Shown: positions 2,804-32,122, counted from the first letter of the stretch. The stretch: 64,000 nucleotides of DNA from an uncultured bacterium (GCA_966243015.1 CBIMES010000001.1:50598-114597); one strand, 5' to 3'. The notes: generated by a model not told the origin, from the letters alone. Numbers and translations are program-made.

Positions 2804-3610
2804 CTATTTCTTGCCACCGAGGATGATGTCGATGGTGCCCTTGATGTAGTCGATAGGGAGGGCGCCCGAGATGGCGACGATCGTTCGCTCCTTGTTGATG
2901 GAGACGGGGAGGCTTCCATCGGGAAGCTTGAGCGATGCGTAGAGGAGAGTCACGTCGTCAGCCGTCTTCTGCGAGAGAGGCTTTGCGAGGACGAGGAAGC
3001 TCGAAGGGGTTCCGTTCGCGCCGGCGTTCTGCGCGTCCGAGACACTCTGGGCGATCTCGGCGACGTGCTTGTCGCTGTTGAGGCAGGCGTTGAAGGCGGT
3101 CATATCAAGACCGAGGCCTCGGGCGATCTCGGGAAGCTTCGCTGGGTCGAGCCCGTCATTTGCGGGGGTAATCGCGAAGATCTGGTCGATATATGGCCAG
3201 AACTTGCCCTGGTCGGCGGCACATTCGGTTGCCTGCGCCTCCTTCGGAGCCTTCGAGTGAAGCTGGACTATAGGGAAGTGTCGGTACACCCACGATACCT
3301 TTCCGCTCGTGCCGTAGTCCTTCACGACGGTCTGGAGAGTGTTGTGAAAGTTCCTGCAGAACGGGCACTCGGTGTCAGAGTACTCGACGATGACGATGTC
3401 GGCGTTCGCGCTGCCGAGAATGTTGTCGCTCTCGGTGACGGGCGGGATGGTAATGTCCCTCTGGGCTCGGGCGAGCGCGTTTGCGTTGCCAGATGTCGAG
3501 GTACCCGACTTGCCGCTCATGTACACTGCTCCTCCGATGAGAAGTCCCGCGATGACGATGGCGATCGGAACCGCGAGTGACTGCTGCTTGGTTGATGGGG
3601 TGTCTTGCAT
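2804..3610 (-). CDS. DsbA-like thiol:disulfide oxidoreductase with N-terminal membrane anchor
   Basis: An N-terminal TM helix is followed by a thioredoxin fold with the CPFC (CxxC) active site in 'DTECPFCRNFH'. Confidence 0.75.
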   Translation of the reverse strand: MQDTPSTKQQSLAVPIAIVIAGLLIGGAVYMSGKSGTSTSGNANALARAQRDITIPPVTESDNILGSANADIVIVEYSDTECPFCRNFHNTLQTVVKDYGTSGKVSWVYRHFPIVQLHSKAPKEAQATECAADQGKFWPYIDQIFAITPANDGLDPAKLPEIARGLGLDMTAFNACLNSDKHVAEIAQSVSDAQNAGANGTPSSFLVLAKPLSQKTADDVTLLYASLKLPDGSLPVSINKERTIVAISGALPIDYIKGTIDIILGGKK

Positions 3611-10641: not shown

Positions 10642-11256
10642 ATGAGACCCTTCATGAGCAAGCATTCGGAGAGGCGGAATTCTGAGTTTAGGCGGGTCGC
10701 TACGAGCTGGGCCATCGAATTTGGCCCTATCGTGGTCTTTTTTCTTACCGCAGAGTACGTTGGTCTTGTTAACGCCACGGGCCTTTTCGTCTTCCTGACG
10801 GCCCTTGCCCTTATCGCATCGTACTCGAAGGACCGTAGAATCGCCTTATTCCCGCTCCTCGCGGGCCTTTCAGTCATCATCTTTGGCTGTCTGACGGTGT
10901 TTCTGCACAACCCTCTCTATATCATCCTCAAGGATACGGTCTATAACGGCCTCTTTGCCGTGGCGATCGCCGTAGGTCTCTATGGATACGGGAGGCCAAT
11001 TCTGAAGGATCTCTTCAGCTCGCTGTTCCATATGACGGATAGGGGATGGATGATTCTTTCGAGGCGCTGGATGGTCATGTTCGTTTTCCTCACCGTCTCC
11101 AACGAGCTGGTGAGGCATCTCTTGGGTGCCGACGCCTGGGTCAATTACAAAATGGTTGCCACGTTCTCGACTATCGTATTCGGCCTCTATCAGATAACGC
11201 TCTCGAAGAGGGAGAGGATGCCTGACTCAAACAGGTGGGGGATGAATATCAAATAG
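10642..11256 (+). CDS. yciB: intracellular septation protein A family (YciB/IspZ-like) inner membrane protein
   Basis: Five TM helices and the overall YciB pattern. The start is chosen at the internal MRPFMSKH because TACAAT directly abuts the ATG; the upstream part of the track ORF is junk. Confidence 0.55.
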   Translation: MRPFMSKHSERRNSEFRRVATSWAIEFGPIVVFFLTAEYVGLVNATGLFVFLTALALIASYSKDRRIALFPLLAGLSVIIFGCLTVFLHNPLYIILKDTVYNGLFAVAIAVGLYGYGRPILKDLFSSLFHMTDRGWMILSRRWMVMFVFLTVSNELVRHLLGADAWVNYKMVATFSTIVFGLYQITLSKRERMPDSNRWGMNIK

Positions 11257-12355: not shown

Positions 12356-12710
12356 GTCCTAACTCTACATGAATCACGTCTAAAAGATAGGGAAGTCAAA
12401 TGTGGTGGCTCGTGACCCCTGTGGGCGAGAGGTGTCTGCAGATAGAGAGGTTACTTTATAGCTCTTTTTTAAACATTGATAAACATTACTATCAAATCTA
12501 CGTATTTAAGCCACATTATGAATCTCGGATAGCTATCTGATGGTTGGGTGGCCTTTATCTTTTTCTTATCAATTCTTTATGCCGAGATGACCATTCTGAG
12601 AGGGGGTGCCCTGCTCGGGTTGGGTGGGGTCGTGACGTTTGGAATGCGAAAATGAGGAAAGGCGCTATCCACAGAGATTTACGGTTGCATTGATTTTATA
12701 ATATTCACCA

Positions 12711-15700
12711 ATGAGCTCAGATCTCTTTTTCGAAGGAAAAAAGTTCATCTCGTCTAGACGAGCTGCGGATCTGTGCGCCTATACTCAGGACTACGTCGGT
12801 CAGCTTATTCGCTCTGGAAAGCTCGAGGCAAAAATGGTCGGAAGGAACTGGTTTGTCGCCGAGGAGTCGATTCTGGCCTACAAGCGCCTCGCGGATGAGT
12901 CTTCGAAGACCCTTTTCCAGAAGACGGATGAGGCCATCTCGGCAAGCCGAGACGCCTCAGAACACGAGGCTGTAGAGGCTGTCGAGGTGCCTGTGGCTGC
13001 GAAGGCTCCGGACCCTGTTATCCCGGAAGTTGTTTCCCCGGTTCCTGCCGTTCGAGAAGAGGCCTATGTTGGTCTTGTCTATACTTATGACGAAAGGTCA
13101 TCTCTTCCTGAGCTTAAAAAGACTTCAGTTCAGCCCGTCGCCAAGGCCGTCGTGGAGCCTGCTGTCCCGGAGACTGTCGAGGAGGTTGTGCCTGAGCCTG
13201 TGGCGGGGGTTGTCTCTCCCTTTATATATGAGGAGTCGATCGAGGGTCTCGGGGGCGACTTCGGCATGATTGATATCGGCAGGAAGGCCCTCGCCGCCGC
13301 GCTCTCGCTTTCCCTGGTCCTCGGTTCTTACTATATGGCTGACGCCGAGAGGTCGAGGTCGTTCCTCTCGTCGACAGAGGCCGTGGGTTCTCGTATGTCG
13401 CTTGCGGTCACTGATACCTTCGCCAAGCTCGCCGCGTCCGTCGGTGTCGTTAAGGAAGCGTATCTCGCGGCGGTTCACAATGCCGGTGTGTACGCGGTTG
13501 AGGGCGTCGTTGCTTTTGTTGGTGCAGCAGAGGATGTCGTCTCCTTGTACGGTGACGCAGTTGAGACGGTCGGACGACGATCGTCTGACGCGAGCGATGT
13601 ACTGGCGTCGGTCAGCATTCCTGATACGGCACGAACGATCGCGGCGCAGATCCGCGTCGAGGGTATTGGCTCCGCGTCTCTCGCGGCGGCGTCTACTGCG
13701 GGCGGCTCACTTGTCTCGGGCCTCGAGTCGGTGGCCGTTGGCGTGTACGAGGCGATTAACCCGATCTTCTCGAGGACGAGCTCGTTCCTTGCAGGGCTCT
13801 TTGCGCCAAAGGACACTGTCCTCGTCATCGACACTCCTGCGCCTATCGCCCCGCAGCCTGAGCCGCAGAGGGAGGCGGTCGCCGTCGTCGCTTCGCCTGT
13901 CGTCGTCACTCAGCCCGCGCAGCCCGTAACGCAGGTCAACAACACCTACTATCAGACCTCTGGCCTCAGCGCCGCTGACGTGACTGCTCTCGTGAAGAGT
14001 GCGACGGCGGACCTTGAGGCCCAGGTCGCCCAGGCCCAGCTCGATGCGCTCAGGGCAAACGAGAATGCCCGCAACGCGGCGGACCGCGGCTCTCGATACG
14101 ATCTCGACAGGATTACCATACGAAGGAGCGAGATCAAGGACTCGAGGATGACGGGTTCGACGATCGCCGACTCTCGCATCGAGAACTCAACACTTGTGAA
14201 CGCGAACCTCACAGGTACGACGACGGCGGGCCTGATTGCTGCGGACTCTATCACCGCCAACAGCATCACGTTCTCGAACTCGAACATCCAGAACTCGACG
14301 ACGACCAACGCGACCTCCACCAACCTCTTCGCCTCGGCCTTCGCCGCAGACCGCCTCCAGGTCGCGGGATCGACGGGCGTCACCATCACCTCGAGCGGTC
14401 TGGTGGGCATCGGCACCTCGACGCCCGAGGCACAGCTCGCCATCGCGCAGATCACGAACGGCCTGCCGATGCTCTCCGCGCGTCGCGTGACGGACGTCGC
14501 CCCTTCGGGTGACTTTATAAACTACAGGAGCGCGGACGGCGGTACCGTGCTCTTCCGCGTCGACAACTCGGGAAATCTTCTCGCCGGCGGAATCATCACC
14601 ACGGGAAGCTACACGGTCACCTCGACCTCGACGCCTCAGTTCCGCGTGCAGTACGACGGCTCTGCCGAGATGACGACCATGGTCGCGTCGACTGGCGCGG
14701 CCGTAATCGCGGTCAACGGCTCGAATCCTTCCGTGTCGTTTGTCCCTCAGTCGAATGGAACCTCGACGTTTGCGGTGACCGATGCGTCACTTGCGCCGAT
14801 TGTTTCGGTCAATACCATTGATAAGTCTGCGACGGTCACGAACCTTATTGCTTCGACGGGTGTTGTCGCGGGGCTATCGTCGACCTATTCGACAAGCACG
14901 AACGCGACGAGCACAAATTTCTTCTCGGCAAATTTCGTTGCGGTTAACTCGCTTTCCGACAATGCAACGACTACCAACCTGAGCGCCGCAACTGTCTCGG
15001 CGGGCGATATCGTCGCCACGGGTTCGCTTGCCGTCACGGGCCAGACAACTCTCGGGGGAGTTGTTCTCGTCAATTCGACGACGACAAACGCGGTCGGCAC
15101 GAATTTGGCTTTCGTAAACTCGACCTCCACCAATCTCTACGCCCAGTCTCTCGCCTCTGACGACTCTGTTCTCGGAAACGCGACGTCGACCAATTTCTTC
15201 TCGACCTTTGGCCGATTGCTGACGGGAACCATCGACAGCCTCTCGTCGACTATCGCGTCGATCGGCGACCTCTTCGCGAACACGCTCGTCGTCACGAACA
15301 GCACGACGACCAACGCAACAACTACTAACCTCTACGCCCAGTCGCTCGTGGCGGGCACTTCGACGTTCGCGGCTCTTAACGCATCGGGGCAGGTTGTCGT
15401 CGGCACCACGACCGGCTCGAGCTATATCGGATGGGGAGGCTATGGCTACGATGCTGCGCTTACCGTCGAGGGCGGCGCGAAGATCGTAAGTAATACTGGT
15501 GAGACTCTCATTCAGAACACCACTAATTATCCTGTTCATGACGACACGACGCTCTTCAGGAACAACGTGCTCGCTATTCAGAATACCGGCGTTACGGCGA
15601 CCAACAGGAAGCTTCCTTCCGCTATTCGCTTCCTTGACGAGACGGGCGCCGAGATGGGTGCCATTGGTTACAGCAACGACAATGTGTGGGCTCCTTTCGC

Positions 15701-18700
15701 CGAGTCATTCTTTATATCCGCGAGCCAGCCGTACTATCCAGGCACTCCGGCGCAGGCGCCGACGAGGTTCGCCCTCCTTCAGGAGGGTCTGTATCAGAGC
15801 GTCGCTCGATACGCGCCTCGTCTTGAGTTCACGACTGACTGGACCACGAACTTCAAGGATCCTCTTGGAAATACGAACCTCAGCATATCTCCGTCGGGTA
15901 CTTCGACCTTCAGGTACTCACTCACCAGTCAGGTGTCCTCGTCGACTGTTCTCACTGTTCACAATACGGGTGGAAGCTTCAACACCTCGTCCGCACCATT
16001 GTCTTCATATGCTGGGTCATTCACGTCCGCTTCGACTCGCTCTGCCGGATCAAACGCGCTTACCAACGTGGGAATCTACGCAAGCGCCTCGGGTGCCCAG
16101 AACAACTACGCTGCGATTTTCGATCAGGGCAACGTGGGTATCGGCACCTCTACGCCGAATCGTGCCCTCTCCGTCGTCGGAGACATAGACTTCACGGGAT
16201 CCCTGCGCACGGGAGGAGTGGCAAGGATCAATTCCGGGGGAGTCTTCATTGCCGCTAACGGAACCGTGGGCAATCCCGGATATAACTTCTCGGGCGACAC
16301 TGGATCCGACACGGGTATGTATCGCGTGGCCGAGGACACGATAGGCTTCTCTACGGCGGGCGTGAACAGGCTGACGATCGGAAACACGGGCAACATAGGT
16401 GTCGGTACCACGTCCCCGACAGCCAGGGTATCTACGGTGTTCAGCTCAAATTCCACATCTAACGCAATAAACCTGAGCCCGTCCAACGATGGGAACAGGG
16501 CGCTTTGGCTCGACGGAAACATGATAAACGTGAGTACGGTCGTGTCGTCGTACTCGCAGACGGCGAACTCGCTTCCGCTCTTCATACAGCCGTACTGGTC
16601 GAACTTCCAGACGGGTCTGACCGTGGGAACCACGACGAACCAGACGGCCGTCAACACGGCGATGATCGTGTACGGCTCGAACGCGTCGTCCGCGACGACC
16701 TCGAGGACGTTCGCGACGAGGAACGGCGACAACACGGAAACTTTCACCGTCCTGAACTCTGGCAATATCGGAATTGGAACCACGAGCCCTTCGACGCGCC
16801 TCACGGTTCACGAGACGGGCAGCCTCGCTGCGGCGCGACTGCTGAACGCGTCAAACGCCTTTGACACGCTCCAGCTTCAGTCCACCATCTCTAATGGCTA
16901 CTCAAGTATCGGATTCCTGAATACTTCCGGAAACTCGATGGGCGGATTCGGCTATGCCAACACGGGAGTCGCCGGCAGCCTTCAGGATAAGGTCTACTTC
17001 TACTCCGTAAGCAAGGACATGGTGTTTAGCACCAACAACGGGTCGACGGGTATGCTTACCCTCAACACCGCGGGTAATTTGGGAATTGGCAGCACTACGC
17101 CGCTCTCGACGCTCTCGGTCACGGGCTCTGGAACCACTAGACCGTTCACCGTGGCGTCCTCAACGGGCAACGCCCTGTTCTCGGTGGGCATAGACGGATC
17201 ATCGACCTCGACCGGAACAAGCACGGCCGCAAGTTTCGTGTCCACGTCGGTCATTGCGACCTCGAGCATAATGGGATCTCTCCACGTCGGCGGTCTGTCT
17301 AACACGACTGCAAGGCTTTATTCATCCGGAGCCATCCAGTTCATCAACGGAACTGATCCCGGCCTCTATGGAGCCCTTTGGTCACCGAACTCGGGCGACT
17401 TCGCTGCCAACATGGCAGGACCTCAGCTCGCCTTCTACACTGGCGGCAACAATGCGCGAATCGAGCGCCTCCGCATTGACAGTGCGGGCAACGTCGGCAT
17501 CGGCACGACGTCCCCGACACAGCTCCTTACGCTCTATAAGTCCGGCGGAGACGCGTACACGCAGTACGCCTCGAGTAACACTGGTTCGGCCGCCACGGAC
17601 GGATTCCATGTCGGCGTCGGCACGGCGGGCGAGGCGTTCCTCAACAACAGGGAGTCTACGTCGATGCTGTTTAGGACGGCTGGAGTCTCAAGGATGGTCA
17701 TTGATTCTGGCGGCAACGTCGGAATTGGTACTACCACGCCGCTCACAAAGCTCGATATCGTAAGCAACATCTCCGATCGCATCAGGATGACTGGATCCTC
17801 TTCCGATACCAATCCCGTCAATGGATCGTGGGGTGGTGCGATGTATCTCTCGAACTCCGATACTACCTCAGGCAACTACAACGGCGTGCTCTTCGCGAAT
17901 GCGACCCCCGCCTGGACAAGCGGTATCTTCGGCATAAACACCACCCATGCGAACAGGACGGGCGAACTTTCGTTCTTCACCTGGAATGCGGGTGTTGGTA
18001 GCGAGAAGATGCGCATCACTCCTGCGGGTAACGTCGGCATCGGCACAACATCACCCGCATCTCTCCTTGCAGTTAGCGGAAAGGGAACTTTCGGTACAAG
18101 CGACGCCGTCACGCCTCAGCTCGAGGTCATCGGCGGAACGAGCGGCGCGGGAATGATTCGCCTCAATCGCGCGGGAACAGGCACGGTCTTTGATTGGGCG
18201 CTTACTGGCGGAGGCCTCGCGTTCAATGATGTGAGCGGCGCGTCGGGCGCGACCGTAGTTAATATTTTTGGCGCCAGCGGCCTTAATGAGCTTTACGTCG
18301 GTCAGGCGTCCAAGACGATAGTCGATACTCGTGCCTCTCTTATATCGGGAACCACGTTCGGTTCCTCCGCGGGAACTGACGTCGCCGCACAAAATCTCAC
18401 GCTTCGTTCCGGCCTCGGCACGGGCGCGGGTGTCCCGGGCGATCTCGTCTTCCAGACTGGTACTGTGCTTGCTTCGGGTTCAACTGCGCAGTCTGGTAGC
18501 GCTCGTCTTACCATTAAGGCGACCACCGGCAACGTCGGGATAGGTACGACAACCCCTCAGAAGTTACTGCATCTCTACGGAGATCCGACTACGGCTCGCT
18601 TGAGAATGCAGAGCAATACCGCCTTGAATAGTGTATACGCTGAGATGGCTACTGACGCTAGTACTGGATCGTTCAACTTGCTTGCAGACCATAGCGCTGG

Positions 18701-21347
18701 CGCGGCAAATAGTAGTATAGGATTTTTTGTGGATGGATCGCAGAGGGTTATAATCGACCAGTCTGGTAATGTTGGCATTGGCACGACTACGCCTGGGGTA
18801 AAACTTGAAGTGGCGGGAGACGTGCGTATTCCGACGGGAAGTGTCGGCACGGCATCCTTGCGTTTCGGTGTCGATAACAACTCCGGTTTTTACCAGCCGT
18901 CTTCTGGCTCCATCGCTTGGACTTCAGGAAGCGTTGAAAGGTTCAGAATTACTAACACCGGAGAAGTTGGTATCGGTACCACGAGCCCGACGGCCCGTCT
19001 CCAGGTCGACGTCGTGGACAGCGATGCCTCGTCGTATACGGGTGACTTCGCCGTCGTTGGCTCGACCAATAAGGCCGTGGCTTTGGGTGTTAATTCGACG
19101 TACGGCTGGATGCAGTCTCATGGTAGCGTCCCTTTGGCTATTAACCCGAACGGAAACAATGTTGGAATCGGAAGCACCTCTCCGGCGCACCTTCTCTCGG
19201 TGAGCGGAAGCTCGGGCGGATGGATGGGCTTCAACTCTGCCGGCACGGGCGGCGGCGGATCGCCGACCCTTTCCCTCAGCGTGAGCCCGGCCTCGAACGC
19301 GAGCGCGGGAGCGTACCAGACCCTCAGGGGAAACCTCGAGGCGTGGGTTGACGTCATTGCCCAGAACAACGCATCGGGCCAGCGCCACATGAGGTTCGGT
19401 AACGGCCAGCCTACCAATACTTTCTCGGTGCAGGCGCTTAACGACGCGGGCAACACCATCCTGAGGACTCCGTTCTCGGTGCACAATCTTGCTCCGACCG
19501 CGTCTCTCTACGTTAGCTCGACGGGTAACGTGGGCGTGGGAACGTCGAGCCCTGCCGCGCCTCTCACCGTCTTCTCGACGGTGGCAAACAACGCTGCCGG
19601 TCAGGAAGTCCTCAGGCTCGGCGCGCCTCTTTCCGGAGGAATCCCCGGCTCTGGCCCTGCTATAGTGTTCGCGAACAACGCGGGAACCGTCGAGAACTTC
19701 AAGATCAGGTCGGGCGCAGACGCCTCGGGATCGGGAAGGGGTAACCTCACGTTCTCGGGCGGCGGCGCGACCCTCGCGACCCTTTCCGACCTCATGACCC
19801 TCTCCTATACCGGAAACCTCGGTATCGGCACGACCTCTCCGGCCGCGAAGCTCTCGGTCGTGGGCGAGACGCTTTCGAGCTGGTTCACCGCGACCTCGAC
19901 GACGGCGACCTCGTCGATCGCCGGAAGCTTCGACGTGGGCAACGGCGCCCTCAGGTACAACTACGGAACGGGCCTCACCTCGATCGACAACCTCCAGCTC
20001 GGCAACCTCAACTTCGAGGCCGACTCGGGCGTCGTCACCTGGGTCGACATGCCTGTGACCGCTGCGTCGGCTGCCGGCACCAAGCAGAGCTACACCGCCT
20101 CGATCAACGGCAACCCGCTCCTCACCGTCTACTCTGAGTCAGACGGCGCGGGCGGCATCCAGAACTCGGGCGTAGGCATCGGCACCTCCACGCCGCTCGC
20201 GAAGCTCGACATCTGGGGCAATTTCCGCGTGTCAACCTCGACTTCGGCCGCCTCGCCGCTTGTCTTCGCGAACACGGCTTCGGGAATGTTCGGTATCGGT
20301 ACCTCTTCTCCGACCGCGCAGCTTCACACGACGGGCACCGTCAGGTTCTCGAACTTCGGATCGGGTACTCTCACGACGGATGCGAGCGGAAACGTGTCGG
20401 TATCGTCTGACGAGCGGCTCAAGGACATCTCGGGTCGATTCAGCCGAGGCCTCGAGGACCTCAAGAAGATCAGCCCGATCCTCTACAAGTGGAACGCGAC
20501 GTCTGGTCTCGATATGGTCGAGCTCTACGCCGGATTCTCTGCCCAGAACGTCGAGACCGCGATTCCCGAGGCTGTCGGCGTCAATCCGAATGGCTTCCTC
20601 AGCCTCAACGACCGACCTATCCTCGCGGCCTCGGTCAACGCGATCAAGGAGCTCGCGCTCTCCGTCGCAAGCACGACCGAACGCGTGGCGGGAATCGAGA
20701 GCAGGGTAAGGAGCCTCGAGCTCACCCTGGCGACCGCCGGCGTTCCTGGGTTCGTGACCGCTACGACCTCGGCATCCTCGACGATCGAGACGGTTACGGG
20801 ATGGCTCGCGTCGCTCGGCGCTTCGATTGAGAACGCGGTCGCGCGATTCGTGACGGTCATTGCTGACGCAATCTCGACCAAGAAGCTCACTGTGGGCGAC
20901 ACGTCCAACCTCGCGGCGTCGGGCATCACTATCTTCGACCGATCGACCGGCCAGCCTGTGTGTATGTTCGTCGAGGGCGGCGTCATGAAGAGCGAGCCGG
21001 GGGAGTGCGGCGCGCAGAGCCAGCCTTCGACCCCAGAGCCTTCGCAGCAGGATCCTCAGCCGACCCAGCCTGAGCCGGCGCCCTCAGAGCCATCGGGCGA
21101 GACGGCCTCGACCACGCCGGAAGTGACCGGCTCTACGGGCACCACCACTCCTGAGATTGCCCCTGAGCCGACGGCAAGCACGACCCCCGAGGTAACGCCG
21201 GAGGCTCAGCCTGAGGTGCCTCAGGAAACCACCGGCCCAGAAGAGGTCGTCGCTTCAGAGACGGAGCCTGAGCAGGCCCCTGAAGCCCCAGAAACGCCCT
21301 CAGAGCCCGCTTCCGAGCCCGAGCCGACTCCCGTAGCAACCGAGTAA
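12711..21347 (+). CDS. giant (2878 aa) membrane-anchored surface fibre/adhesin-like protein with HTH_17-like N-terminus, TM helix, beta-helix-like repeats, C-terminal peptidase S74 domain and Pro/Thr-rich tail
   Basis: Single uninterrupted ORF. Domain calls are given in the sub-features below. Confidence 0.8.
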   Translation: MSSDLFFEGKKFISSRRAADLCAYTQDYVGQLIRSGKLEAKMVGRNWFVAEESILAYKRLADESSKTLFQKTDEAISASRDASEHEAVEAVEVPVAAKAPDPVIPEVVSPVPAVREEAYVGLVYTYDERSSLPELKKTSVQPVAKAVVEPAVPETVEEVVPEPVAGVVSPFIYEESIEGLGGDFGMIDIGRKALAAALSLSLVLGSYYMADAERSRSFLSSTEAVGSRMSLAVTDTFAKLAASVGVVKEAYLAAVHNAGVYAVEGVVAFVGAAEDVVSLYGDAVETVGRRSSDASDVLASVSIPDTARTIAAQIRVEGIGSASLAAASTAGGSLVSGLESVAVGVYEAINPIFSRTSSFLAGLFAPKDTVLVIDTPAPIAPQPEPQREAVAVVASPVVVTQPAQPVTQVNNTYYQTSGLSAADVTALVKSATADLEAQVAQAQLDALRANENARNAADRGSRYDLDRITIRRSEIKDSRMTGSTIADSRIENSTLVNANLTGTTTAGLIAADSITANSITFSNSNIQNSTTTNATSTNLFASAFAADRLQVAGSTGVTITSSGLVGIGTSTPEAQLAIAQITNGLPMLSARRVTDVAPSGDFINYRSADGGTVLFRVDNSGNLLAGGIITTGSYTVTSTSTPQFRVQYDGSAEMTTMVASTGAAVIAVNGSNPSVSFVPQSNGTSTFAVTDASLAPIVSVNTIDKSATVTNLIASTGVVAGLSSTYSTSTNATSTNFFSANFVAVNSLSDNATTTNLSAATVSAGDIVATGSLAVTGQTTLGGVVLVNSTTTNAVGTNLAFVNSTSTNLYAQSLASDDSVLGNATSTNFFSTFGRLLTGTIDSLSSTIASIGDLFANTLVVTNSTTTNATTTNLYAQSLVAGTSTFAALNASGQVVVGTTTGSSYIGWGGYGYDAALTVEGGAKIVSNTGETLIQNTTNYPVHDDTTLFRNNVLAIQNTGVTATNRKLPSAIRFLDETGAEMGAIGYSNDNVWAPFAESFFISASQPYYPGTPAQAPTRFALLQEGLYQSVARYAPRLEFTTDWTTNFKDPLGNTNLSISPSGTSTFRYSLTSQVSSSTVLTVHNTGGSFNTSSAPLSSYAGSFTSASTRSAGSNALTNVGIYASASGAQNNYAAIFDQGNVGIGTSTPNRALSVVGDIDFTGSLRTGGVARINSGGVFIAANGTVGNPGYNFSGDTGSDTGMYRVAEDTIGFSTAGVNRLTIGNTGNIGVGTTSPTARVSTVFSSNSTSNAINLSPSNDGNRALWLDGNMINVSTVVSSYSQTANSLPLFIQPYWSNFQTGLTVGTTTNQTAVNTAMIVYGSNASSATTSRTFATRNGDNTETFTVLNSGNIGIGTTSPSTRLTVHETGSLAAARLLNASNAFDTLQLQSTISNGYSSIGFLNTSGNSMGGFGYANTGVAGSLQDKVYFYSVSKDMVFSTNNGSTGMLTLNTAGNLGIGSTTPLSTLSVTGSGTTRPFTVASSTGNALFSVGIDGSSTSTGTSTAASFVSTSVIATSSIMGSLHVGGLSNTTARLYSSGAIQFINGTDPGLYGALWSPNSGDFAANMAGPQLAFYTGGNNARIERLRIDSAGNVGIGTTSPTQLLTLYKSGGDAYTQYASSNTGSAATDGFHVGVGTAGEAFLNNRESTSMLFRTAGVSRMVIDSGGNVGIGTTTPLTKLDIVSNISDRIRMTGSSSDTNPVNGSWGGAMYLSNSDTTSGNYNGVLFANATPAWTSGIFGINTTHANRTGELSFFTWNAGVGSEKMRITPAGNVGIGTTSPASLLAVSGKGTFGTSDAVTPQLEVIGGTSGAGMIRLNRAGTGTVFDWALTGGGLAFNDVSGASGATVVNIFGASGLNELYVGQASKTIVDTRASLISGTTFGSSAGTDVAAQNLTLRSGLGTGAGVPGDLVFQTGTVLASGSTAQSGSARLTIKATTGNVGIGTTTPQKLLHLYGDPTTARLRMQSNTALNSVYAEMATDASTGSFNLLADHSAGAANSSIGFFVDGSQRVIIDQSGNVGIGTTTPGVKLEVAGDVRIPTGSVGTASLRFGVDNNSGFYQPSSGSIAWTSGSVERFRITNTGEVGIGTTSPTARLQVDVVDSDASSYTGDFAVVGSTNKAVALGVNSTYGWMQSHGSVPLAINPNGNNVGIGSTSPAHLLSVSGSSGGWMGFNSAGTGGGGSPTLSLSVSPASNASAGAYQTLRGNLEAWVDVIAQNNASGQRHMRFGNGQPTNTFSVQALNDAGNTILRTPFSVHNLAPTASLYVSSTGNVGVGTSSPAAPLTVFSTVANNAAGQEVLRLGAPLSGGIPGSGPAIVFANNAGTVENFKIRSGADASGSGRGNLTFSGGGATLATLSDLMTLSYTGNLGIGTTSPAAKLSVVGETLSSWFTATSTTATSSIAGSFDVGNGALRYNYGTGLTSIDNLQLGNLNFEADSGVVTWVDMPVTAASAAGTKQSYTASINGNPLLTVYSESDGAGGIQNSGVGIGTSTPLAKLDIWGNFRVSTSTSAASPLVFANTASGMFGIGTSSPTAQLHTTGTVRFSNFGSGTLTTDASGNVSVSSDERLKDISGRFSRGLEDLKKISPILYKWNATSGLDMVELYAGFSAQNVETAIPEAVGVNPNGFLSLNDRPILAASVNAIKELALSVASTTERVAGIESRVRSLELTLATAGVPGFVTATTSASSTIETVTGWLASLGASIENAVARFVTVIADAISTKKLTVGDTSNLAASGITIFDRSTGQPVCMFVEGGVMKSEPGECGAQSQPSTPEPSQQDPQPTQPEPAPSEPSGETASTTPEVTGSTGTTTPEIAPEPTASTTPEVTPEAQPEVPQETTGPEEVVASETEPEQAPEAPETPSEPASEPEPTPVATE
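12744..12887 (+). other. HTH_17 / excisionase-MerR-like helix-turn-helix domain at N-terminus of the giant protein
   Basis: FISSRRAADLCAYTQDYVGQLIRSGKLEAKMVGRNWFV fits the LLTVKEAAELLGVS..TIYRLI..GKLPA.KIGRRW pattern. Confidence 0.5.
14397..20340 (+). repeat. about sixteen divergent protein-level repeats with motif [NV]-[VL]-G-[IV]-G-T-[ST]-[ST]-P-x(2,3)-[KR/Q]-L-x-[VIL], plus TTTNATSTN[LF][FY] motifs, inside the giant ORF
   Basis: Examples: NVGIGTSTPNRALSV, NIGVGTTSPTARVST, NVGIGTTTPQKLLHL, NLGIGTTSPAAKLSV. Periodicity is about 55-130 aa. Confidence 0.7.
20406..20750 (+). other. peptidase S74 / intramolecular chaperone auto-processing domain (phage tail-fibre / endosialidase type)
   Basis: SSDERLKDISGRFSRGLEDLKKISPILYKWN matches the S-D-x-R-L-K-x-[NI] start and YxY core of the domain. 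Confidence 0.6.
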
Positions 21348-21359
21348 TGAAAATCGTCC

Positions 21360-21902
21360 ATGAGCCATACAAAAAGAAACAAGAAATCGACCGTTTCCGC
21401 AGTCATCGTCGCCCTCGTGGTCCTGGCCGCCCTCGCCGCGTATCTTTTCGTCGGGCAGGGGACTGCCTCCAGGGAGGCATCGGGAACCGAGGCGAGAAAG
21501 GAGTCTAAAGCGTTTGAGTACCGCAAGACGGGCCTCTCGTTCTCGCACGACTCTGAACATACGGTTCGGGTCGTGTCTGATCAAGGGATCGATACGATTG
21601 TGGTCCAGTCGGAGTCTGACACGTCCAAGGGCCTTCAGATTTCCGTCCTGCCGTACGAGGACGATCCGTCGACTCTCACGTTCCAGAAGATCATGTCCGA
21701 CATACCCGACATGAAGGTCGAGAGGCCTCAGGTCGGCACTCTGCCGTTCGGCTCACAAGCCCTCTCGTTCGAGACGGGCGACGGAGCTTTGCGCACAAGG
21801 GAAGTGTGGTTCGCTCGTGCGGGCTACGTGTATCAGATGAGCGCGCCGATTGGCTCGTCCGGGCTGATTGAGTCGACCATAGCGTCCATGTCATTTGAGT
21901 AA
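21360..21902 (+). CDS. hypothetical membrane-anchored/secreted protein
   Basis: N-terminal signal anchor (VSAVIVALVVLAALAAYLF); lies between the giant gene and the LamG gene. Confidence 0.55.
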   Translation: MSHTKRNKKSTVSAVIVALVVLAALAAYLFVGQGTASREASGTEARKESKAFEYRKTGLSFSHDSEHTVRVVSDQGIDTIVVQSESDTSKGLQISVLPYEDDPSTLTFQKIMSDIPDMKVERPQVGTLPFGSQALSFETGDGALRTREVWFARAGYVYQMSAPIGSSGLIESTIASMSFE

Positions 21903-24117
21903 TATGAGGAAACTATTATTCACAGCGCTTCTCGCGATCGCGGCATTCACGATACTCTCGGGAGATGCTCTTGCCGCGACGCTCGTCAGGCCGGCGAACA
22001 ACCTGGGGCTTGTGGGATGGTGGACCCTTGATCAGGGTACGTCGACGCGAGCGACGGATTCCTCGGGCTACGGGAACAATGGCACGCTTTTTAACTTTGC
22101 CGCCCCCGCAACTGTCTCGAGCGGATGGACGACGTACGGCAAGAGGGGAGGCGCGATGCTCTTTGACGGTACGAACGACACTATCCAGGTGCCTCATGGC
22201 GCCTCGATGAAGCCGTCCTCGACCATGACCGTGTCGGCGTGGGTCAAGCCAGACGTCGGATCGCTCTCGAGCGCCATACGCGAAATCTACAGGAAGGAGG
22301 ATGCCCAAAGGCACCTTTTCTCCTTTCAGATGCCGGCAGGTCAATGCGCGACGGGTACGGGTGTCTCAACGTGCATTTCCTTCGGCATAGTCGTCGGGGG
22401 CACGTACTCTGAGTTTGACGTCCCGATTACTGCGTCAGATTTCGAGGGCAGGTGGCGACTCGTCACTGCGGTGTATGATGGTACGAACAGGTATATGTAC
22501 TTCGACGGCGTACTTGCATCGAGCACGCCCACCACGGGAGCCATCGGCACATCGGGAACCAATTCCGCGTATATAGGTTCGAACGGCGGAGGTGGCGAGT
22601 GGTTTAAGGGGGCAATTGATGATCTCCGCGTCTACAGCAGGGCCCTTTCCGCATCGGAGGTTGAGGCGTTGTACTCGACGGGAGCCGTCACGAGAAAGAC
22701 GGCAAACAACACAGACCTCTTTGGTTCGTGGACCTTCGACGAGGGAACCTCGACTGTCGCACACGACTTTTCGGGCAATGGCAGGAATGGAACGCTCAAC
22801 GGTTTCCCTGCGGTGTCTACCGTGTCGAGCGGCTGGGCCTTGGGGAAGAGGGGGAACGGACTGGTCTTTGACGGAACCAACGATTACGTTGAGGTTGCCA
22901 ACACGCTCTCTGATATAGGCACCGGATCGTTTACCTCGGCGGCATGGTTCAGGGCGTCGAACACAGGTATCACTTGGAAGCGCGTCATGCACACGGGCTG
23001 TGTCGCCTATACCAACGGCATGTTTATGGCCCGTTGGAACGCAAGCGGCCAGATGGCCGCAGCCGTATGCAACGGATCGGCAGCGGCTAACAGCTTCGTG
23101 CCCGTGACAACGGCAACCTATCTCGACGGCAGGTGGCATCACATGGCGTTCGTCGTTGACCGCGTCGCCGGTACGGCACGGATCTACATTGATGGTGTCA
23201 ACGTGACGATTCAGAAAAATATCTCTGGCACGGAATGCGGCACGCTTTCCGGTGACTCTCTGTATCTCGATATCTCGGCGTGCCCGTCGGCAACCGTGGC
23301 CGGCGGTAACCTCCGCCTCGGTGCGAACTCGACGGGAGGCGAGAGGTGGGACGGATTAATCGACGATGCCAAGCTCTATTCGAGAGCCCTCTCTGCCTCT
23401 GAGATTTCAGGTCTCTATTCCCAGGGGGCGGCGACCATCGGCGTTACCACCGACAAGGTGTCGAGCGGCTTGGTCGGGTATTGGTCGTTCAATGGAAAGG
23501 ATATGGACTGGTCATCTAACACCGCCTATGACAGGTCTGGGTACGGTATTAACGGCATTGGTACCGCGCAGCTCTCGGCGACAACGTCGCCCGTGGCTGG
23601 CAGGGTTGGGCAGGCACTCTCTTTCACGGGGGCAAACGGCCTGGACATGCCTGTCACCACGGGCTCAATAGGGGCTCTCACGAACGCCATATCCATGTCT
23701 CTGTGGGTTAAGAGGGGCGACGACGGAACCTTCAGGAATATCGCGGGCGTGACCAAGGACGATTCGACTACGTCTTATTCCTGGGGTTTCAGGGTTAACA
23801 ACACTAACAATGTCTTCTTCGACGTGTTTGTTTCTGGGTTCAGGCTTCAGGTCGGAGACCCTTCGGTCGTGCCTGTCGGCACGTGGGCGCACTACACGTT
23901 CACTTGGGACGGTGCAAACCTTATCCTATATAAGAACGGAGTCCTTACGAGCTCAACCACGAGGTCGGGTACGCTCGATCCGTATAACACCAAACAGTTC
24001 GGCATATCAAACACAGGCGGTTATTCGCGCTTCGTCGGCTCGATCGATGAGGTAAGGGTCTACAACAGGGCCCTCTCCGCGGCCGAGGCAAAGCAGCTCT
24101 ATCTCATGGGCAAATAG
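21895..24117 (+). CDS. secreted protein with four LamG-like (concanavalin A-like lectin/glucanase, Laminin_G_3) repeats
   Basis: Signal peptide, then four repeats each ending in D[DE]x[RK][VL]Y[SN]RALSAxE[VIA]xxLY. Confidence 0.8.
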   Translation: MSNMRKLLFTALLAIAAFTILSGDALAATLVRPANNLGLVGWWTLDQGTSTRATDSSGYGNNGTLFNFAAPATVSSGWTTYGKRGGAMLFDGTNDTIQVPHGASMKPSSTMTVSAWVKPDVGSLSSAIREIYRKEDAQRHLFSFQMPAGQCATGTGVSTCISFGIVVGGTYSEFDVPITASDFEGRWRLVTAVYDGTNRYMYFDGVLASSTPTTGAIGTSGTNSAYIGSNGGGGEWFKGAIDDLRVYSRALSASEVEALYSTGAVTRKTANNTDLFGSWTFDEGTSTVAHDFSGNGRNGTLNGFPAVSTVSSGWALGKRGNGLVFDGTNDYVEVANTLSDIGTGSFTSAAWFRASNTGITWKRVMHTGCVAYTNGMFMARWNASGQMAAAVCNGSAAANSFVPVTTATYLDGRWHHMAFVVDRVAGTARIYIDGVNVTIQKNISGTECGTLSGDSLYLDISACPSATVAGGNLRLGANSTGGERWDGLIDDAKLYSRALSASEISGLYSQGAATIGVTTDKVSSGLVGYWSFNGKDMDWSSNTAYDRSGYGINGIGTAQLSATTSPVAGRVGQALSFTGANGLDMPVTTGSIGALTNAISMSLWVKRGDDGTFRNIAGVTKDDSTTSYSWGFRVNNTNNVFFDVFVSGFRLQVGDPSVVPVGTWAHYTFTWDGANLILYKNGVLTSSTTRSGTLDPYNTKQFGISNTGGYSRFVGSIDEVRVYNRALSAAEAKQLYLMGK

Positions 24118-24136: not shown

Positions 24137-24355
24137 ATGACACCAGAACAAGAGCAGATTTTGAGGGAGGTTAAGCAGCTCGCGGAGGAGAACGCCGAGA
24201 CACTGAGGGTCATCAGGCGCTCGTATAGGATCGGCAACATCATGAGGGTTGTCTACTGGGTTTTCCTCATCGGCCTCTCGCTCGGCGCGCTCTATTTCAT
24301 CCAGCCGTACGTCGATACCGCAAAGGACGCGTACAGCGAACTCCTCTCTTTCTAA
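24137..24355 (+). CDS. small membrane protein (72 aa, C-terminal TM)
   Basis: TATATAAT lies 6 nt upstream of the ATG; coiled N-terminus plus TM (VVYWVFLIGLSLGALYFI); followed by element E1. Confidence 0.5.
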   Translation: MTPEQEQILREVKQLAEENAETLRVIRRSYRIGNIMRVVYWVFLIGLSLGALYFIQPYVDTAKDAYSELLSF

Positions 24356-32120: not shown

Positions 32121-32122
32121 TA

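What the first reader, a model, noticed from the sequence alone, without database searches (positions are those of the whole stretch)
12711..24117. Giant 2878-aa membrane-anchored fibre-like protein with N-terminal HTH, C-terminal S74 self-cleaving chaperone domain and PT-rich tail, followed by a 4x LamG secreted protein
The 8.6-kb ORF combines modules that do not normally co-occur:
- a cytoplasmic excisionase/MerR-type HTH_17-like domain at the extreme N-terminus;
- a single TM helix about 190 aa in;
- an Ala/Val/Ser-rich stalk;
- about 16 degenerate repeats centred on GIGT(T/S)(T/S)P..(K/R)L.V plus TTTNATSTN motifs, beta-helix or tail-fibre-like;
- a peptidase S74 / intramolecular chaperone domain (SSDERLKDISG...), which in phage tail fibres and endosialidases auto-cleaves after trimer folding;
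- a coiled coil and a ~120-aa Pro/Thr/Glu-rich tail.
If the S74 domain is active, roughly the C-terminal 310 aa would be released.
Immediately downstream lie a small membrane-anchored protein (21360..21902) and a secreted protein with four LamG/ConA-like lectin repeats (21895..24117).
An AT-rich upstream region (12356..12710) carries direct repeats (AAACATT x2) and the palindrome GATAGCTATC.
Together this looks like a dedicated surface adhesin or attachment-fibre locus, plausible for an episymbiotic lifestyle. The HTH + TM + S74 combination is, to my knowledge, not a described architecture.
Basis: partly seen in the sequence, partly recalled or inferred. Interest (0 to 1): 0.8.

Follow-up and report, generated by a model that had tools for sequence, protein, structure and literature searches.

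The report
Membrane-anchored tail-fibre-like surface fibre (CPR)
A tiny, probably host-attached bacterium encodes a 2878-residue cell-surface fibre built like a phage tail fibre, held in the membrane by an unusual DNA-binding-type domain, which makes it a strong candidate for the structure such bacteria use to grip other cells.

Summary
ORF 12711..21347 is real: the identical 2878-aa protein is on 7 independently assembled contigs.

Its parts, in order:
- an excisionase/BldC-type winged HTH;
- a conserved linker motif (YxxDERxxLPELKK);
- one TM helix and an Ala/Val stalk;
- a shaft with 16 'GNVGIGTTSPxxxLxV' motifs;
- a peptidase S74 domain with the SDERLK dyad (Ser2566/Lys2571);
- a coiled coil, a Cys-x14-Cys hairpin and a Pro/Thr/Glu tail.

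The only solved sequence relatives are Bdellovibrio MAT fibres, which are trimeric prey-binding fibres, many ending in S74. Phage tail-fibre families also match strongly.

The locus is chromosomal, not prophage. Giant gene, 180-aa anchor protein, LamG protein and 72-aa membrane protein keep their order in related Paceibacteria (CPR) genomes.

Corrections: LamG has 3 repeats, not 4; HTH_17 is below Pfam's cut-off here, but family-wide hits and fold support it; the palindrome is not conserved.

New points:
- The HTH-TM module is a large CPR family (6812 clusters), often heading giant surface proteins.

Verdict: a new variant of a known kind. Adhesion, cleavage and DNA binding are inferred, not shown.

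The parts
12470..12487 (+). Conserved tandem direct repeat TAAACATT-GA-TAAACATT with a 10-bp period, followed by a degenerate third unit TATCAAAT. It is a candidate operator.
   Evidence: These are the only two TAAACATT copies in the 64-kb window. They are invariant in alignment A6 of 7 genomes whose flanks are otherwise diverged. All 31 matches (up to 2 mismatches) in 917 kb of CPR loci lie 177-419 bp upstream of an HTH-TM ORF, including loci without FtsJ and in either orientation.
12499..12513 (+). Conserved box TACGTAnnTAAGCCA next to the repeat.
   Evidence: AGCCA is invariant in 7 genomes.
12666..12673 (+). Conserved box T(A/T)TCCACA, preceded by GAAAAT.
   Evidence: TCCACA is invariant in 7 genomes.
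12697..12702 (+). TATAAT box, ending 8 nt before the ATG. This suggests a leaderless or very short-leader mRNA.
   Evidence: ATAAT is invariant in 7 genomes. No Shine-Dalgarno sequence is visible. Function was not tested.
12711..21347 (+). Giant fibre gene, 2878 aa.
   Evidence: 7 contigs carry the identical product.
12711..12905 (+). Residues 1-65: excisionase/BldC-type winged HTH (HTH_17-like), inferred to be cytoplasmic.
   Evidence: PF12728 is the top hit in 19 of 19 family members, best E 2.9e-7; the window domain alone scores 23.6 bits. The AF2 model has pLDDT 84. Top Foldseek hits are Pukovnik Xis (rmsd 1.5 A), BldC, RacA, TraN and RdfS, with probability 0.99-1.0.
13080..13121 (+). Residues 124-137: linker motif YTYDERSSLPELKK.
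   Evidence: The motif is conserved between HTH and TM in both giant and small family members.
13275..13340 (+). Residues 189-210: single TM helix acting as a signal anchor, oriented N-in.
   Evidence: Hydropathy and K/R bias are conserved in 20 homologues. No dedicated TM predictor was available.
13341..14150 (+). Residues 211-480: Ala/Val/Ser-rich stalk with a helical or coiled-coil segment.
   Evidence: Composition. The region is 60-75% identical to P0001.
14151..16100 (+). Residues 481-1130: proximal shaft with S/T/N-rich 'TTTNATSTN' stretches and the first GIGT motif (residue 566).
   Evidence: Residues 486-785 are 79-91% identical to P0001 and the sequence is variable beyond that.
16101..20405 (+). 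Residues 1131-2565: shaft with 15 further capping-loop motifs. The middle (to about 2314) is mosaic. The tip-proximal part (2315-2565) is conserved and would become the mature C-terminus after cleavage.
   Evidence: Motif count. PDB hits to MAT fibres Bd2133 8ond (E 2e-8), 8oml and 8ojn. Tail-fibre phrog_18345 8e-40 and phrog_9942 3e-36. Cyanophage, pelagiphage and Thermus phage tail fibres are 26-29% identical. Mosaic pattern.
20406..20780 (+). Residues 2566-2690: peptidase S74 / intramolecular chaperone domain plus coiled coil. Ser2566 is encoded at 20406-20408 and Lys2571 at 20421-20423.
   Evidence: PF13884 above its cut-off. S, D and K are invariant in 30 sequences. pLDDT is about 90. The MyRF ICA domain 7dc3 matches at E 5.5e-5, followed by the endosialidase chaperone 3gw6.
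20781..21014 (+). Residues 2691-2768: post-chaperone helices and the Cys2751-x14-Cys2766 beta-hairpin module.
   Evidence: pLDDT is about 80 for the hairpin. The module is conserved in a subset of CPR S74 proteins. It is absent from all 56 viral matches, which end by residue 211 of the query.
21015..21344 (+). Residues 2769-2878: Pro/Thr/Glu-rich, presumably disordered tail.
   Evidence: Composition. Homologues have similar tails.
21360..21902 (+). 180-aa protein with an N-terminal membrane anchor; no known family.
   Evidence: No Pfam, PHROG or PDB hit. It is conserved directly downstream of the giant gene in L001 (79%), L002 (54%) and L006 (29%).
21904..24117 (+). Secreted protein with a signal peptide and three Laminin_G_3 (ConA-like lectin) units.
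   Evidence: PF13385 at E 2.8e-79 with 3 stretches. Three DDxRxYxRALS motifs. It evolves fast: 71% identity to L001 and 35% to L002, against 72-98% for housekeeping neighbours.
24137..24355 (+). 72-aa single-TM protein, the last gene of the cluster.
   Evidence: 85-93% identical in L001 and L002, at the same position.

Best explanation
**What it is.** This is a chromosomally encoded, vertically inherited surface fibre of a CPR (Paceibacteria-type) bacterium. It is built from the same parts as phage tail fibres and Bdellovibrio MAT fibres.

**Shown here**
- The shaft and the S74 domain are homologous to those families.
- The catalytic Ser-Lys dyad is intact.
- The N-terminus is an excisionase-type winged HTH, followed by a conserved motif and a hydrophobic helix.
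- The four-gene cluster and its upstream repeat element are conserved.

**Inferred mechanism**
- The first 190 residues stay in the cytoplasm, and the TM helix acts as a signal anchor.
- About 2670 residues are exported.
- Three chains are registered from the C-terminus by the S74 chaperone and fold into a beta-helical fibre.
- The fibre would be roughly 95-170 nm long, scaled from the MAT dimensions.
- The chaperone then cuts itself off before Ser2566. This frees a 313-aa fragment and exposes the conserved tip (residues 2315-2565).
- The fibre, probably together with the co-encoded LamG lectin, binds surface glycans of a host or partner cell.
- The cytoplasmic HTH-motif module fixes the base of the fibre to a conserved cytoplasmic partner. 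That partner could be a protein or DNA.
For: **Gene integrity**
- The ORF is real and reproducibly assembled.

**Domains and homology**
- S74 is supported by Pfam, an invariant S/D/K and the ICA fold.
- MAT fibres are the only PDB sequence relatives.
- The MAT paper describes the same capping-loop motif, SDxxxK self-cleavage, surface display and a role in prey handling (PMC10769870).
- Tail-fibre PHROGs match at 8e-40 and 3e-36, and phage tail fibres match over 540 aa.
- The HTH fold is supported.
- The TM helix and positive-inside bias are conserved.

**Genomic context and taxonomy**
- The flanks are housekeeping genes with no phage genes: TruB, BipA, TlyA/FtsJ, HSP20, PrsW, LeuRS, FtsZ/A and GyrA.
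- The synteny FtsJ | giant | ORF2 | LamG | ORF4 is kept in relatives.
- The same full architecture occurs in P0001-P0004, P0135, P0149 and L006.
- All genome hits are CPR.

**Surface-protein signatures**
- The variable middle of the giant protein and the LamG protein evolve much faster than their neighbours, as expected for surface-exposed interaction proteins.
- The only two extracellular cysteines flank a hairpin, and a DsbA-like gene lies at 2804..3610.
- Giant membrane proteins and a fibrous, roughly 100-nm epibiont-host gap are reported for another CPR bacterium (PMC8080830).
Against: - No experiment or expression data exist. Trimerisation, cleavage, surface exposure and binding are all inferred from homology.
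- AF2 could only be run as a monomer, and the pre-S74 shaft came out at low confidence, pLDDT 40-55.
- The TM helix is only moderately hydrophobic (KD 1.44), and no dedicated topology predictor was available.
- In phages and MAT fibres the variable part is usually the tip. Here the tip-proximal 250 residues are the most conserved part (>90% to P0001), and the middle varies.
- The 313-aa released fragment is about twice the size of a normal S74 chaperone, and its extra modules have no assigned role.
- The role of the HTH is unknown.
Confidence: 0.65

Rival explanations
1. **Membrane-tethered DNA-binding regulator or sensor.** The N-terminal HTH is a working DNA-binding domain that recognises the conserved TAAACATT direct repeats upstream of its own gene. 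The same would hold for the small 2xHTH-TM paralogues. The fibre would then couple its assembly or contact state to transcription or to tethering of the chromosome, in the manner of ToxR/CadC or RacA. This can coexist with an adhesin role.
For: - The closest folds are DNA-binding proteins: Xis, BldC, RacA and RdfS.
- BldC and Xis bind head-to-tail direct repeats (PMC5859096).
- A 10-bp-phased direct repeat lies 177-419 bp upstream of HTH-TM genes in all 31 occurrences. It travels with the gene rather than with FtsJ and occurs in either orientation.
- R34 is invariant in the second helix, and the G44-R45 wing is conserved.
- The small paralogues carry two HTH copies in tandem, and the element has two strong units.
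Against: - No binding data exist.
- The element is mostly confined to the fibre-type subfamily. It was not found upstream of most SecA-GatB-linked small HTH-TM genes.
- HTH domains can serve as protein-binding modules, as in RodZ (my own knowledge).
- A membrane-tethered domain must reach a specific chromosomal site.
- The repeat could instead be the site of an unrelated regulator or a promoter element.
Confidence: 0.2
2. **Structural envelope fibre without host specificity.** The fibre would serve as a spacer, a protective coat, a cell-cell cohesion element or a phage decoy, rather than as a host-attachment adhesin.
For: - The tip-proximal region is highly conserved rather than diversified.
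- A CPR relative has a generally fibrous surface attributed to giant membrane proteins (PMC8080830).
- The gene has a fixed chromosomal position next to housekeeping genes over wide divergence.
Against: - The closest characterised relatives, MAT fibres and phage fibres, are receptor-binding devices.
- A fast-evolving lectin-type protein is co-encoded.
- The mosaic shaft suggests selection on exposed surfaces.
Confidence: 0.12
3. **Phage-derived gene.** The gene would be a prophage or tailocin tail fibre, or a recent phage acquisition, annotated here out of context.
For: - Tail-fibre PHROG and phage tblastn matches are strong.
- The S74 domain is up to 59% identical to domains on viral contigs.
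Against: - No phage genes flank it.
- The same housekeeping synteny holds in genomes whose FtsJ is only 57-59% identical.
- GC content is like that of the host genome.
- The N-terminal HTH-TM anchor and the post-S74 extension are absent from the viral matches.
Confidence: 0.02
4. **Assembly or annotation artefact.** Unrelated ORFs would have been joined by a chimeric assembly or a frameshift.
For: One short ENA contig product (P0007) diverges into another frame after about residue 297.
Against: - The identical 2878-aa product is on 7 contigs from independent assemblies.
- Both ends are collinear with homologues.
- There are no DNA tandem repeats.
Confidence: 0.01

Closest known systems
Bdellovibrio bacteriovorus MAT (mosaic adhesive trimer) fibres, S74 subgroup (e.g. 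Bd3182; solved Bd2133 8ond, 8oml, 8ojn)
   Same: - They are the only solved structures with detectable sequence similarity (E 2e-8).
- They share the capping-loop motif V-G-G/N-x-x-x-P-x-x-x-L, which is repeated along a trimeric beta-helix.
- They share a C-terminal S74 domain with SDxxxK self-cleavage.
- Both are cell-encoded fibres of a bacterium that lives on other bacteria, and both are mosaic.
   Different: - MAT fibres have a signal peptide and a conserved ~130-aa beta-rich N-domain, and sit on a diderm outer surface.
- This protein has a cytoplasmic HTH, a linker motif and a TM anchor.
- It is about 3 times longer.
- It carries a 313-aa released fragment with a coiled coil, a Cys hairpin and a Pro/Thr tail.
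- Its tip-proximal part is conserved and its middle is variable.
- It sits in a conserved four-gene cluster with a LamG protein.
Phage tail fibres and tailspikes with a C-terminal intramolecular chaperone (K1F endosialidase 3gw6, GA-1 3gud, T5 L-shaped fibre; cyanophage and pelagiphage tail fibres)
   Same: - The S74 fold and dyad match.
- The shaft is homologous to tail-fibre PHROGs and to annotated tail fibres.
   Different: - It is not part of a virion and is not in a phage genome.
- It is anchored in a cell membrane by its N-terminus rather than docked to a baseplate.
- It has an extended post-chaperone region that was not found on viral contigs.
MYRF (myelin regulatory factor) of eukaryotes
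   Same: - It is the best structural match for the S74/ICA domain (7dc3).
- It is the one described protein that also combines a DNA-binding domain, a beta-helix + ICA domain and a TM helix (PMC3742440, PMC8326128).
   Different: - MYRF's order is DNA-binding domain, then ICA, then TM. Both domains are on the cytoplasmic side, so cleavage frees the transcription factor.
- Here the order is HTH, TM, fibre, ICA, so cleavage would free the far C-terminus outside the cell, not the HTH.
- The DNA-binding fold also differs: Ndt80-type in MYRF, excisionase/MerR-type here.
Excisionase/BldC/RacA-type winged HTH proteins (Pfam HTH_17)
   Same: - The fold of residues 1-60 matches.
- HTH_17 is the consistent best Pfam hit.
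- A phased direct repeat lies upstream, of the kind BldC and Xis bind (PMC5859096).
   Different: - Those are small soluble proteins.
- Here the domain is fused through a conserved motif and a TM helix to a giant extracellular fibre.
- DNA binding was not tested.
N-terminal cytoplasmic HTH + single TM + extracytoplasmic domain proteins (RodZ; ToxR/CadC-type regulators), recalled from my own knowledge
   Same: They share the topological logic: a cytoplasmic HTH, one TM helix and a large outside domain.
   Different: - The HTH classes differ (XRE in RodZ, OmpR-type in ToxR).
- No homology was detected.
- Their outside domains are small sensors, not a 2670-residue fibre.

Membership tests
[quoted passage not shown] | Significant match to the family profile (PF13884). 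| tested here: met
   E 2.2e-7 and 31.5 bits against a cut-off of 22; residues 2566-2622 align to profile positions 1-57 of 58.
[quoted passage not shown] | Catalytic Ser-Lys dyad in an S-D-x-x-x-K motif. | tested here: met
   S2566-D-E-R-L-K2571. S, D and K are invariant in 30 aligned relatives.
[quoted passage not shown] | ICA fold. | tested here: met
   The AF2 domain has pLDDT of about 90. Foldseek finds MyRF ICA 7dc3 (E 5.5e-5, probability 1.0, TM-score normalised to the target (TMt) 0.66), then 3gw6 and 3gud.
[quoted passage not shown] | Preceded by a trimeric beta-helix or fibre whose folding it assists. | tested here: inconclusive
   The monomer model of the preceding 96 residues has pLDDT 40-55. 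Sequence homology to MAT and phage shafts supports this feature. No multimer prediction was available.
[quoted passage not shown] | Autoproteolytic release of the chaperone. | not testable with these tools
   This needs expression of wild type against S2566A.
Bdellovibrio MAT fibre family | Repeated capping-loop motif V-G-G/N-pi-x-x-P-x-x-x-L along the fibre. | tested here: met
   There are 16 copies with consensus GNVGIGTTSPxxxLxV, against a shuffle mean of 0.08. The motif is as defined in PMC10769870.
Bdellovibrio MAT fibre family | Sequence homology to solved MAT fibres. | tested here: met
   8ond E 2.1e-8, 8oml E 2.8e-5, 8ojn E 3.8e-3. These are the only PDB hits.
Bdellovibrio MAT fibre family | Signal peptide followed at once by the conserved ~130-aa beta-rich N-terminal domain. 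| tested here: not met
   The N-terminus is an HTH, a 120-aa linker and a TM helix at 189-210, with no cleavable signal peptide. The MAT N-domain sequence itself was not available for comparison.
Bdellovibrio MAT fibre family | Surface display and a role in prey or host handling. | not testable with these tools
   This needs experiment.
HTH_17 / excisionase-type winged HTH (PF12728) | Score above Pfam's gathering threshold. | tested here: inconclusive
   The window protein scores 16.1 bits in full and 23.6 bits as an isolated domain, against 27. PF12728 is nevertheless the best family for 19 of 19 relatives (best E 2.9e-7) and is precomputed for P0008-P0011.
HTH_17 / excisionase-type winged HTH (PF12728) | Fold: a beta-hairpin (two strands), two helices, then a second beta-hairpin forming the wing. 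| tested here: met
   The AF2 model has pLDDT 84. Hits are Xis 4j2n (rmsd 1.5 A over 46 residues), BldC, RacA, TraN and RdfS, with probability 0.99-1.0 and E 0.01-0.1. A profile search of PDB sequences found nothing.
HTH_17 / excisionase-type winged HTH (PF12728) | DNA binding. | not testable with these tools
   There is only a candidate site, the TAAACATT repeats.
MYRF-type membrane-bound transcription factor | DNA-binding domain and ICA domain on the same side of the membrane, N-terminal to the TM, so that cleavage frees the DNA-binding domain. | tested here: not met
   The order here is HTH (1-65), TM (189-210), fibre, then S74 (2566-).
Virion tail fibre (phage or prophage gene) | Lies among phage structural genes. 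| tested here: not met
   The flanks are housekeeping genes and the synteny is conserved in several genomes.
Laminin_G_3 / ConA-like lectin (gene 21904..24117) | Profile match above the cut-off. | tested here: met
   PF13385 at E 2.8e-79 and 265 bits against 27.6, with three stretches. The NCBIfam TafC model matches only partially, 100.6 bits against 410.

The most novel reading that the evidence does not exclude
The HTH-motif-TM module would be a CPR-wide system that links giant surface proteins to DNA.

- The fibre trimer, or the small 2xHTH-TM paralogues encoded next to giant genes, would bind the phased TAAACATT repeats that sit upstream of these genes.
- The assembly or contact state of a 100-nm extracellular fibre would then be reported directly to the chromosome.
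- That would make it a one-protein trans-envelope sensor, or a tether holding the chromosome at the attachment site.
- Its layout is the inverse of MYRF's.
Probability: 0.15. Interest if true: 0.85.

Novelty: new variant of a known kind. Interest (0 to 1): 0.62.

Why it matters
- How CPR/Patescibacteria recognise and hold on to host cells is largely unknown beyond type IV pili. This locus gives a concrete, conserved and testable candidate: a fibre related to the prey-recognition fibres of Bdellovibrio and to phage receptor-binding fibres, with a predicted self-cleavage site and a partner lectin.
- It suggests that phage-type S74 fibres are used by two unrelated groups of bacteria that live on other bacteria.
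- The N-terminal HTH-motif-TM module is widespread, with 6812 clusters, and I found no description of it. It heads many giant CPR surface proteins.
- A conserved upstream repeat element offers a direct experimental entry point, through EMSA and reporter assays.

Tried and rejected
**Searches that gave little**
- Word-indexed homologue searches with the full protein and with the N-terminal alignment returned only 6 and 5 hits, because low-complexity words dominated the candidates. The exhaustive representative search and the contig scans were used to get round this.
- A profile of the HTH against PDB sequences found nothing; only the fold comparison worked.
- ORF2 and the 72-aa ORF have no Pfam, NCBIfam, PHROG or PDB match.
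- The sigma-70 promoter scan found nothing on the + strand upstream.
- Rfam found nothing in the 355-bp intergenic region. I did not attempt an RNA covariation analysis there because the region between the conserved boxes does not align.
- Tandem Repeats Finder found no meaningful DNA repeats, so the protein repeats are old and degenerate.

**Readings rejected**
- The palindrome GATAGCTATC as a functional site: it is not conserved.
- A prophage origin and an assembly chimera: see the rival explanations.
- A MYRF-like release of the HTH: the domain order rules it out.
- A trimeric-autotransporter reading: there is no YadA-type anchor or any beta-barrel hit.

**Weak result**
- The AF2 monomer model of the shaft before S74 was low confidence and was not interpreted.

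Full report

The ORF at 12711..21347(+) is there and encodes 2878 aa. It is not an artefact.
- The identical product is recorded on 7 contigs from independent assemblies. A neighbouring-gene look-up independently shows a 2878-aa S74 protein next to the same FtsJ/TlyA gene.
- Both ends are collinear with homologues.
- There are no DNA-level tandem repeats.

Pfam gives the following:
- Peptidase_S74 at residues 2566-2622: E 2.2e-7, 31.5 bits against a cut-off of 22.
- A sub-threshold HTH_17 at residues 18-58: 16.1 bits against 27.
- Three, not four, Laminin_G_3 units in the downstream protein.

Other features also check out.
- The motif G[IVLF]G[TS]xxP occurs 16 times, against a mean of 0.08 in shuffles. 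Its consensus is GNVGIGTTSPxxxLxV, and the spacing is irregular at 39-167 residues, apart from a 577-residue gap after the first copy.
- The most plausible TM segment is 189-210. Its hydropathy is moderate, with K/R on the N-terminal side, and this pattern recurs in 20 homologues.
- Composition confirms the Ala/Val/Ser stalk and the Pro/Glu/Thr tail. The protein has only three cysteines: one in the HTH and two flanking a C-terminal hairpin.

**2. What organism and context?**

The window is cellular DNA with 8 tRNAs and housekeeping genes all around: UvrD/PD-(D/E)XK helicase-nuclease, DsbA-like, AhpC, TruB, BipA, IspA, TlyA/FtsJ, HSP20, PrsW, LeuRS, FtsZ, FtsA, S1 and GyrA. No phage genes are present.

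A scan of one genome per species with the N-terminal alignment found relatives only in CPR bacteria: Paceibacterota, Taylorbacteria, Adlerbacteria, Parcubacteria and two bins labelled Saccharibacteria. The best matches of the C-terminus are named Kaiserbacteria or Paceibacterota 'tail fiber domain-containing protein'.

The gene order is well conserved.
- FtsJ | giant | ~178 aa | LamG | 72 aa | HSP20-PrsW-LeuRS is identical in two related metagenome contigs.
- FtsJ | giant is kept in genomes whose FtsJ is only 57-59% identical.
- Giant | ORF2 | LamG is kept in L006.
- Gaps between the four genes are 12, 1 and 19 nt, so an operon is likely.

**3. Anatomy and homology**

*Shaft.* A sequence search of all PDB chains returns only three proteins, all Bdellovibrio bacteriovorus MAT fibres: Bd2133 8ond (E 2e-8), 8oml and 8ojn. 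The MAT paper (PMC10769870) reports the following:
- The fibres are trimeric and beta-helical, and are displayed on the predator's surface.
- 13 of 21 end in an S74 domain with an SDxxxK motif. Self-cleavage was shown for Bd3182 at S782 and abolished by S782A.
- A recurring capping-loop motif, V-G-G/N-pi-x-x-P-x-x-x-L, runs along the fibre. This is the repeat seen here.

Phage tail-fibre families match strongly as well (phrog_18345 8e-40, phrog_9942 3e-36). Annotated tail fibres of cyanophages, pelagiphages and a Thermus phage align over about 95% of a 540-aa shaft segment at 26-29% identity.

*S74 domain.* In an alignment of 30 relatives the Ser, Asp and Lys of SDERLK are invariant. The AF2 model of the domain is confident, with pLDDT of about 90. 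Its best structural matches are the MyRF ICA domain (7dc3, E 5.5e-5) and the K1F endosialidase chaperone (3gw6). Cleavage before Ser2566 would release 313 residues.

*Post-chaperone extension.* After the coiled coil (2637-2674) come two helices, then a Cys2751-x14-Cys2766 beta-hairpin (pLDDT about 80), then the Pro/Thr/Glu tail.
- The hairpin (GITIFDRSTGQPVCMFVEGGVMKSEPGEC) recurs in a subset of CPR S74 proteins.
- None of the 56 matches on viral contigs extends past the coiled coil.
- The extension therefore looks like a feature of the cellular proteins. Its role is unknown.

*N-terminus.* Taken alone, residues 1-66 score 23.6 bits on HTH_17. All 19 family members tested have HTH_17 as their best Pfam family, with a best E of 2.9e-7. 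The AF2 model has pLDDT 84 and shows a beta-hairpin, two helices and a second hairpin forming the wing. It superposes on mycobacteriophage Pukovnik Xis at 1.5 A, and on BldC, RacA, TraN and RdfS, with probability 0.99-1.0.

Between the HTH and the TM helix lies a short conserved motif, Y-x-x-D-E/D-R-x-x-L-P-E-L-K-K. It is present in both giant and small relatives.

**4. The family around it**

The same full architecture occurs in P0001 (3310 aa), P0002 (3136), P0003 (1866, with LVIVD repeats), P0004 (1588), P0135 (4735), P0149 (1708) and L006 (3051). That architecture is HTH, motif, TM, stalk, shaft, S74, coiled coil, Cys hairpin and a low-complexity tail. P0005 (3727 aa) has the same fibre and C-terminus, but a plain N-terminal signal anchor instead of the HTH.

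An exhaustive profile search with the N-terminal module finds 6812 clusters at E<=1e-3 and 3743 at E<=1e-10. Most are ~320-aa proteins with two HTH copies and a C-terminal TM helix; few are giant.

In metagenome loci the small gene sits in a recurring order: SecA, GatB, small 2xHTH-TM gene, giant ORF. All 19 giant ORFs examined immediately downstream also begin with the same HTH, at E 1e-13 to 1e-25. The HTH-motif-TM module is therefore a common CPR 'foot' for giant surface proteins. The window shows the version whose outside part is an S74 fibre.

Against its closest relative, P0001, the window protein is mosaic:

| Residues | Identity to P0001 |
|---|---|
| 1-785 | 60-91% |
| 786-2314 | mostly 20-45%, with large indels and two conserved islands |
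| 2315-2807 | 86-95% |

Housekeeping neighbours are 83-98% identical. The LamG protein is 71% identical to L001 and only 35% to L002. The shaft middle and the lectin are thus the fast-evolving parts.

**5. The upstream region**

The 355-bp intergenic region has GC 0.43. These are the only two copies of that 8-mer in the window, and they lie one helical turn apart.
- The repeat is invariant across seven genomes whose intergenic regions otherwise barely align.
- These include loci with no FtsJ, two separate giant genes in L008 each with its own copy, and both orientations.
- Three further boxes are conserved: TACGTAnnTAAGCCA; GAAAAT...TTATCCACA; and a TATAAT that ends 8 nt before the ATG.

The palindrome is not conserved. 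No Rfam family matches. Because BldC and Xis-type HTH proteins bind head-to-tail direct repeats (PMC5859096), this element is a candidate operator for the HTH of this protein or of its small paralogues. That is a hypothesis only.

**6. Most likely mechanism**

*Shown.* Homology of the shaft and S74 domain to receptor-binding fibres; an intact dyad; the HTH fold; conserved TM-like and motif features; a conserved operon and cis-element; a chromosomal, non-phage context.

*Inferred.*
- The topology is N-in/C-out, with the TM helix acting as a signal anchor.
- Trimerisation is nucleated by the C-terminal chaperone, followed by self-cleavage at Ser2566 and exposure of the conserved tip.
- The fibre and the LamG lectin then bind surface glycans of a partner cell.
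- The fibre would be about 95-170 nm long. This scales 2355 outside residues by the MAT figures: ~550 A for Bd3182 and ~142-150 A for 370 residues of Bd2133.
- That length is comparable with the ~100-nm fibrous gap reported between another CPR bacterium and its host, where giant membrane proteins were also proposed as the cause (PMC8080830).

The cytoplasmic HTH-motif module presumably fixes the fibre base to a conserved partner. Whether that partner is DNA is open.

**7. Comparison and novelty**

It works like a MAT or phage fibre, and it passes the tests for S74, for the capping-loop motif and for sequence homology. It fails the MAT N-terminal definition: it has no signal peptide followed directly by the conserved beta-rich N-domain. 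It is not a virion protein.

MYRF is the one described protein that combines a DNA-binding domain, an ICA domain and a TM helix (PMC3742440, PMC8326128). Its domain order is different, however, so the MYRF release mechanism cannot apply here.

Literature searches found no description of S74 fibres in CPR or of the HTH-TM anchor. Databases already hold many such proteins under generic names. I therefore rate it a new variant of a known kind. Interest is moderate to high for people who study CPR episymbiosis. The open question with the most upside is what the HTH and the conserved repeat element do.

Noticed in passing
window 12470-12487; also L001-L006, L008 (two copies), L012, L073-L087, L094, L119: The tandem direct repeat TAAACATT-NN-TAAACATT (10-bp period, often with a degenerate third unit) lies 177-419 bp upstream of an HTH-TM ORF in all 31 occurrences in 917 kb of CPR loci. 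This holds with or without FtsJ next door and in either orientation. It is a candidate operator.
   Followed up: yes
L011/L124, L096, L099, L104, L112, L117, L123, L125-L127, L132, L136, L140-L142, L145, L146, L148, L149: A recurrent CPR gene order runs SecA, GatB, small 2xHTH-TM protein (~235-330 aa), giant ORF (one is called at 8485 aa). All 19 downstream giant ORFs start with the same HTH domain and a TM helix, but carry different outside repeats (e.g. 'AFSTTSA' repeats in L124).
   Followed up: partly
window 13080-13121 (residues 124-137): A short linear motif, YxxD(E/D)RxxLPELKK, is conserved between the HTH and the TM helix in both giant and small family members. It looks like a docking site for a cytoplasmic partner.
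   Followed up: partly
window 12697-12702: A conserved TATAAT ends 8 nt before the start codon, with no visible Shine-Dalgarno sequence. ATAAT is invariant in 7 genomes. This suggests a leaderless or near-leaderless mRNA.
   Followed up: partly
window 20781-21014 (residues 2691-2768): A post-S74 module of helices plus a Cys-x14-Cys beta-hairpin is conserved in a subset of CPR S74 proteins. A second variant, 'ELCIxDGANDNxPLC(I/L)TK', occurs in others. Neither was seen in the 56 viral-contig matches.
   Followed up: partly
L012 2417-8056: In a distant relative (P0005 locus) the S74 fibre has a plain signal anchor instead of the HTH. It is preceded by a stand-alone MerR/HTH_17 gene, a small 2xHTH-TM gene and four secreted or anchored proteins of unknown family. 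This is the same parts list, encoded as separate genes.
   Followed up: no
L007 (259 aa) and L012 3075-4097 (340 aa): Some small HTH-TM proteins end in a shared extracellular motif: ...SFSDEVxVxxDxxxxxGVITPxFR...F(A/V)(F/Y)VLVP.
   Followed up: no
P0007 (ENA contig of 1591 bp): One short assembly of the same gene switches to another reading frame after about residue 297 and becomes Arg-rich. This is probably an indel error or a variant in that assembly.
   Followed up: no
window 9940-11256: The mechanical 438-aa ORF carries the IspA domain only in residues 258-421. Relatives have a ~210-aa IspA plus an oppositely oriented ~228-aa kinase-like gene, so the ORF start is probably over-extended here.
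   Followed up: no
window 2804-3610 (-) and 30690-34991 (+): A DsbA-like thioredoxin gene could form the single extracellular disulfide of the fibre. Separately, there is a cluster of HlyD-like, FtsX-like permease and ABC ATPase genes followed by an M23 peptidase.
   Followed up: no
window 19974-20250 (residues ~2422-2515): A tip-proximal module, 'NLxLGNLNFExDSGVVTWVDMPV...QSYTAxINGNPLLTVYxExDGxGGI', is conserved even in distant members (L006, P0006, P0016). It is a candidate binding or assembly module just before the last two capping loops.
   Followed up: no
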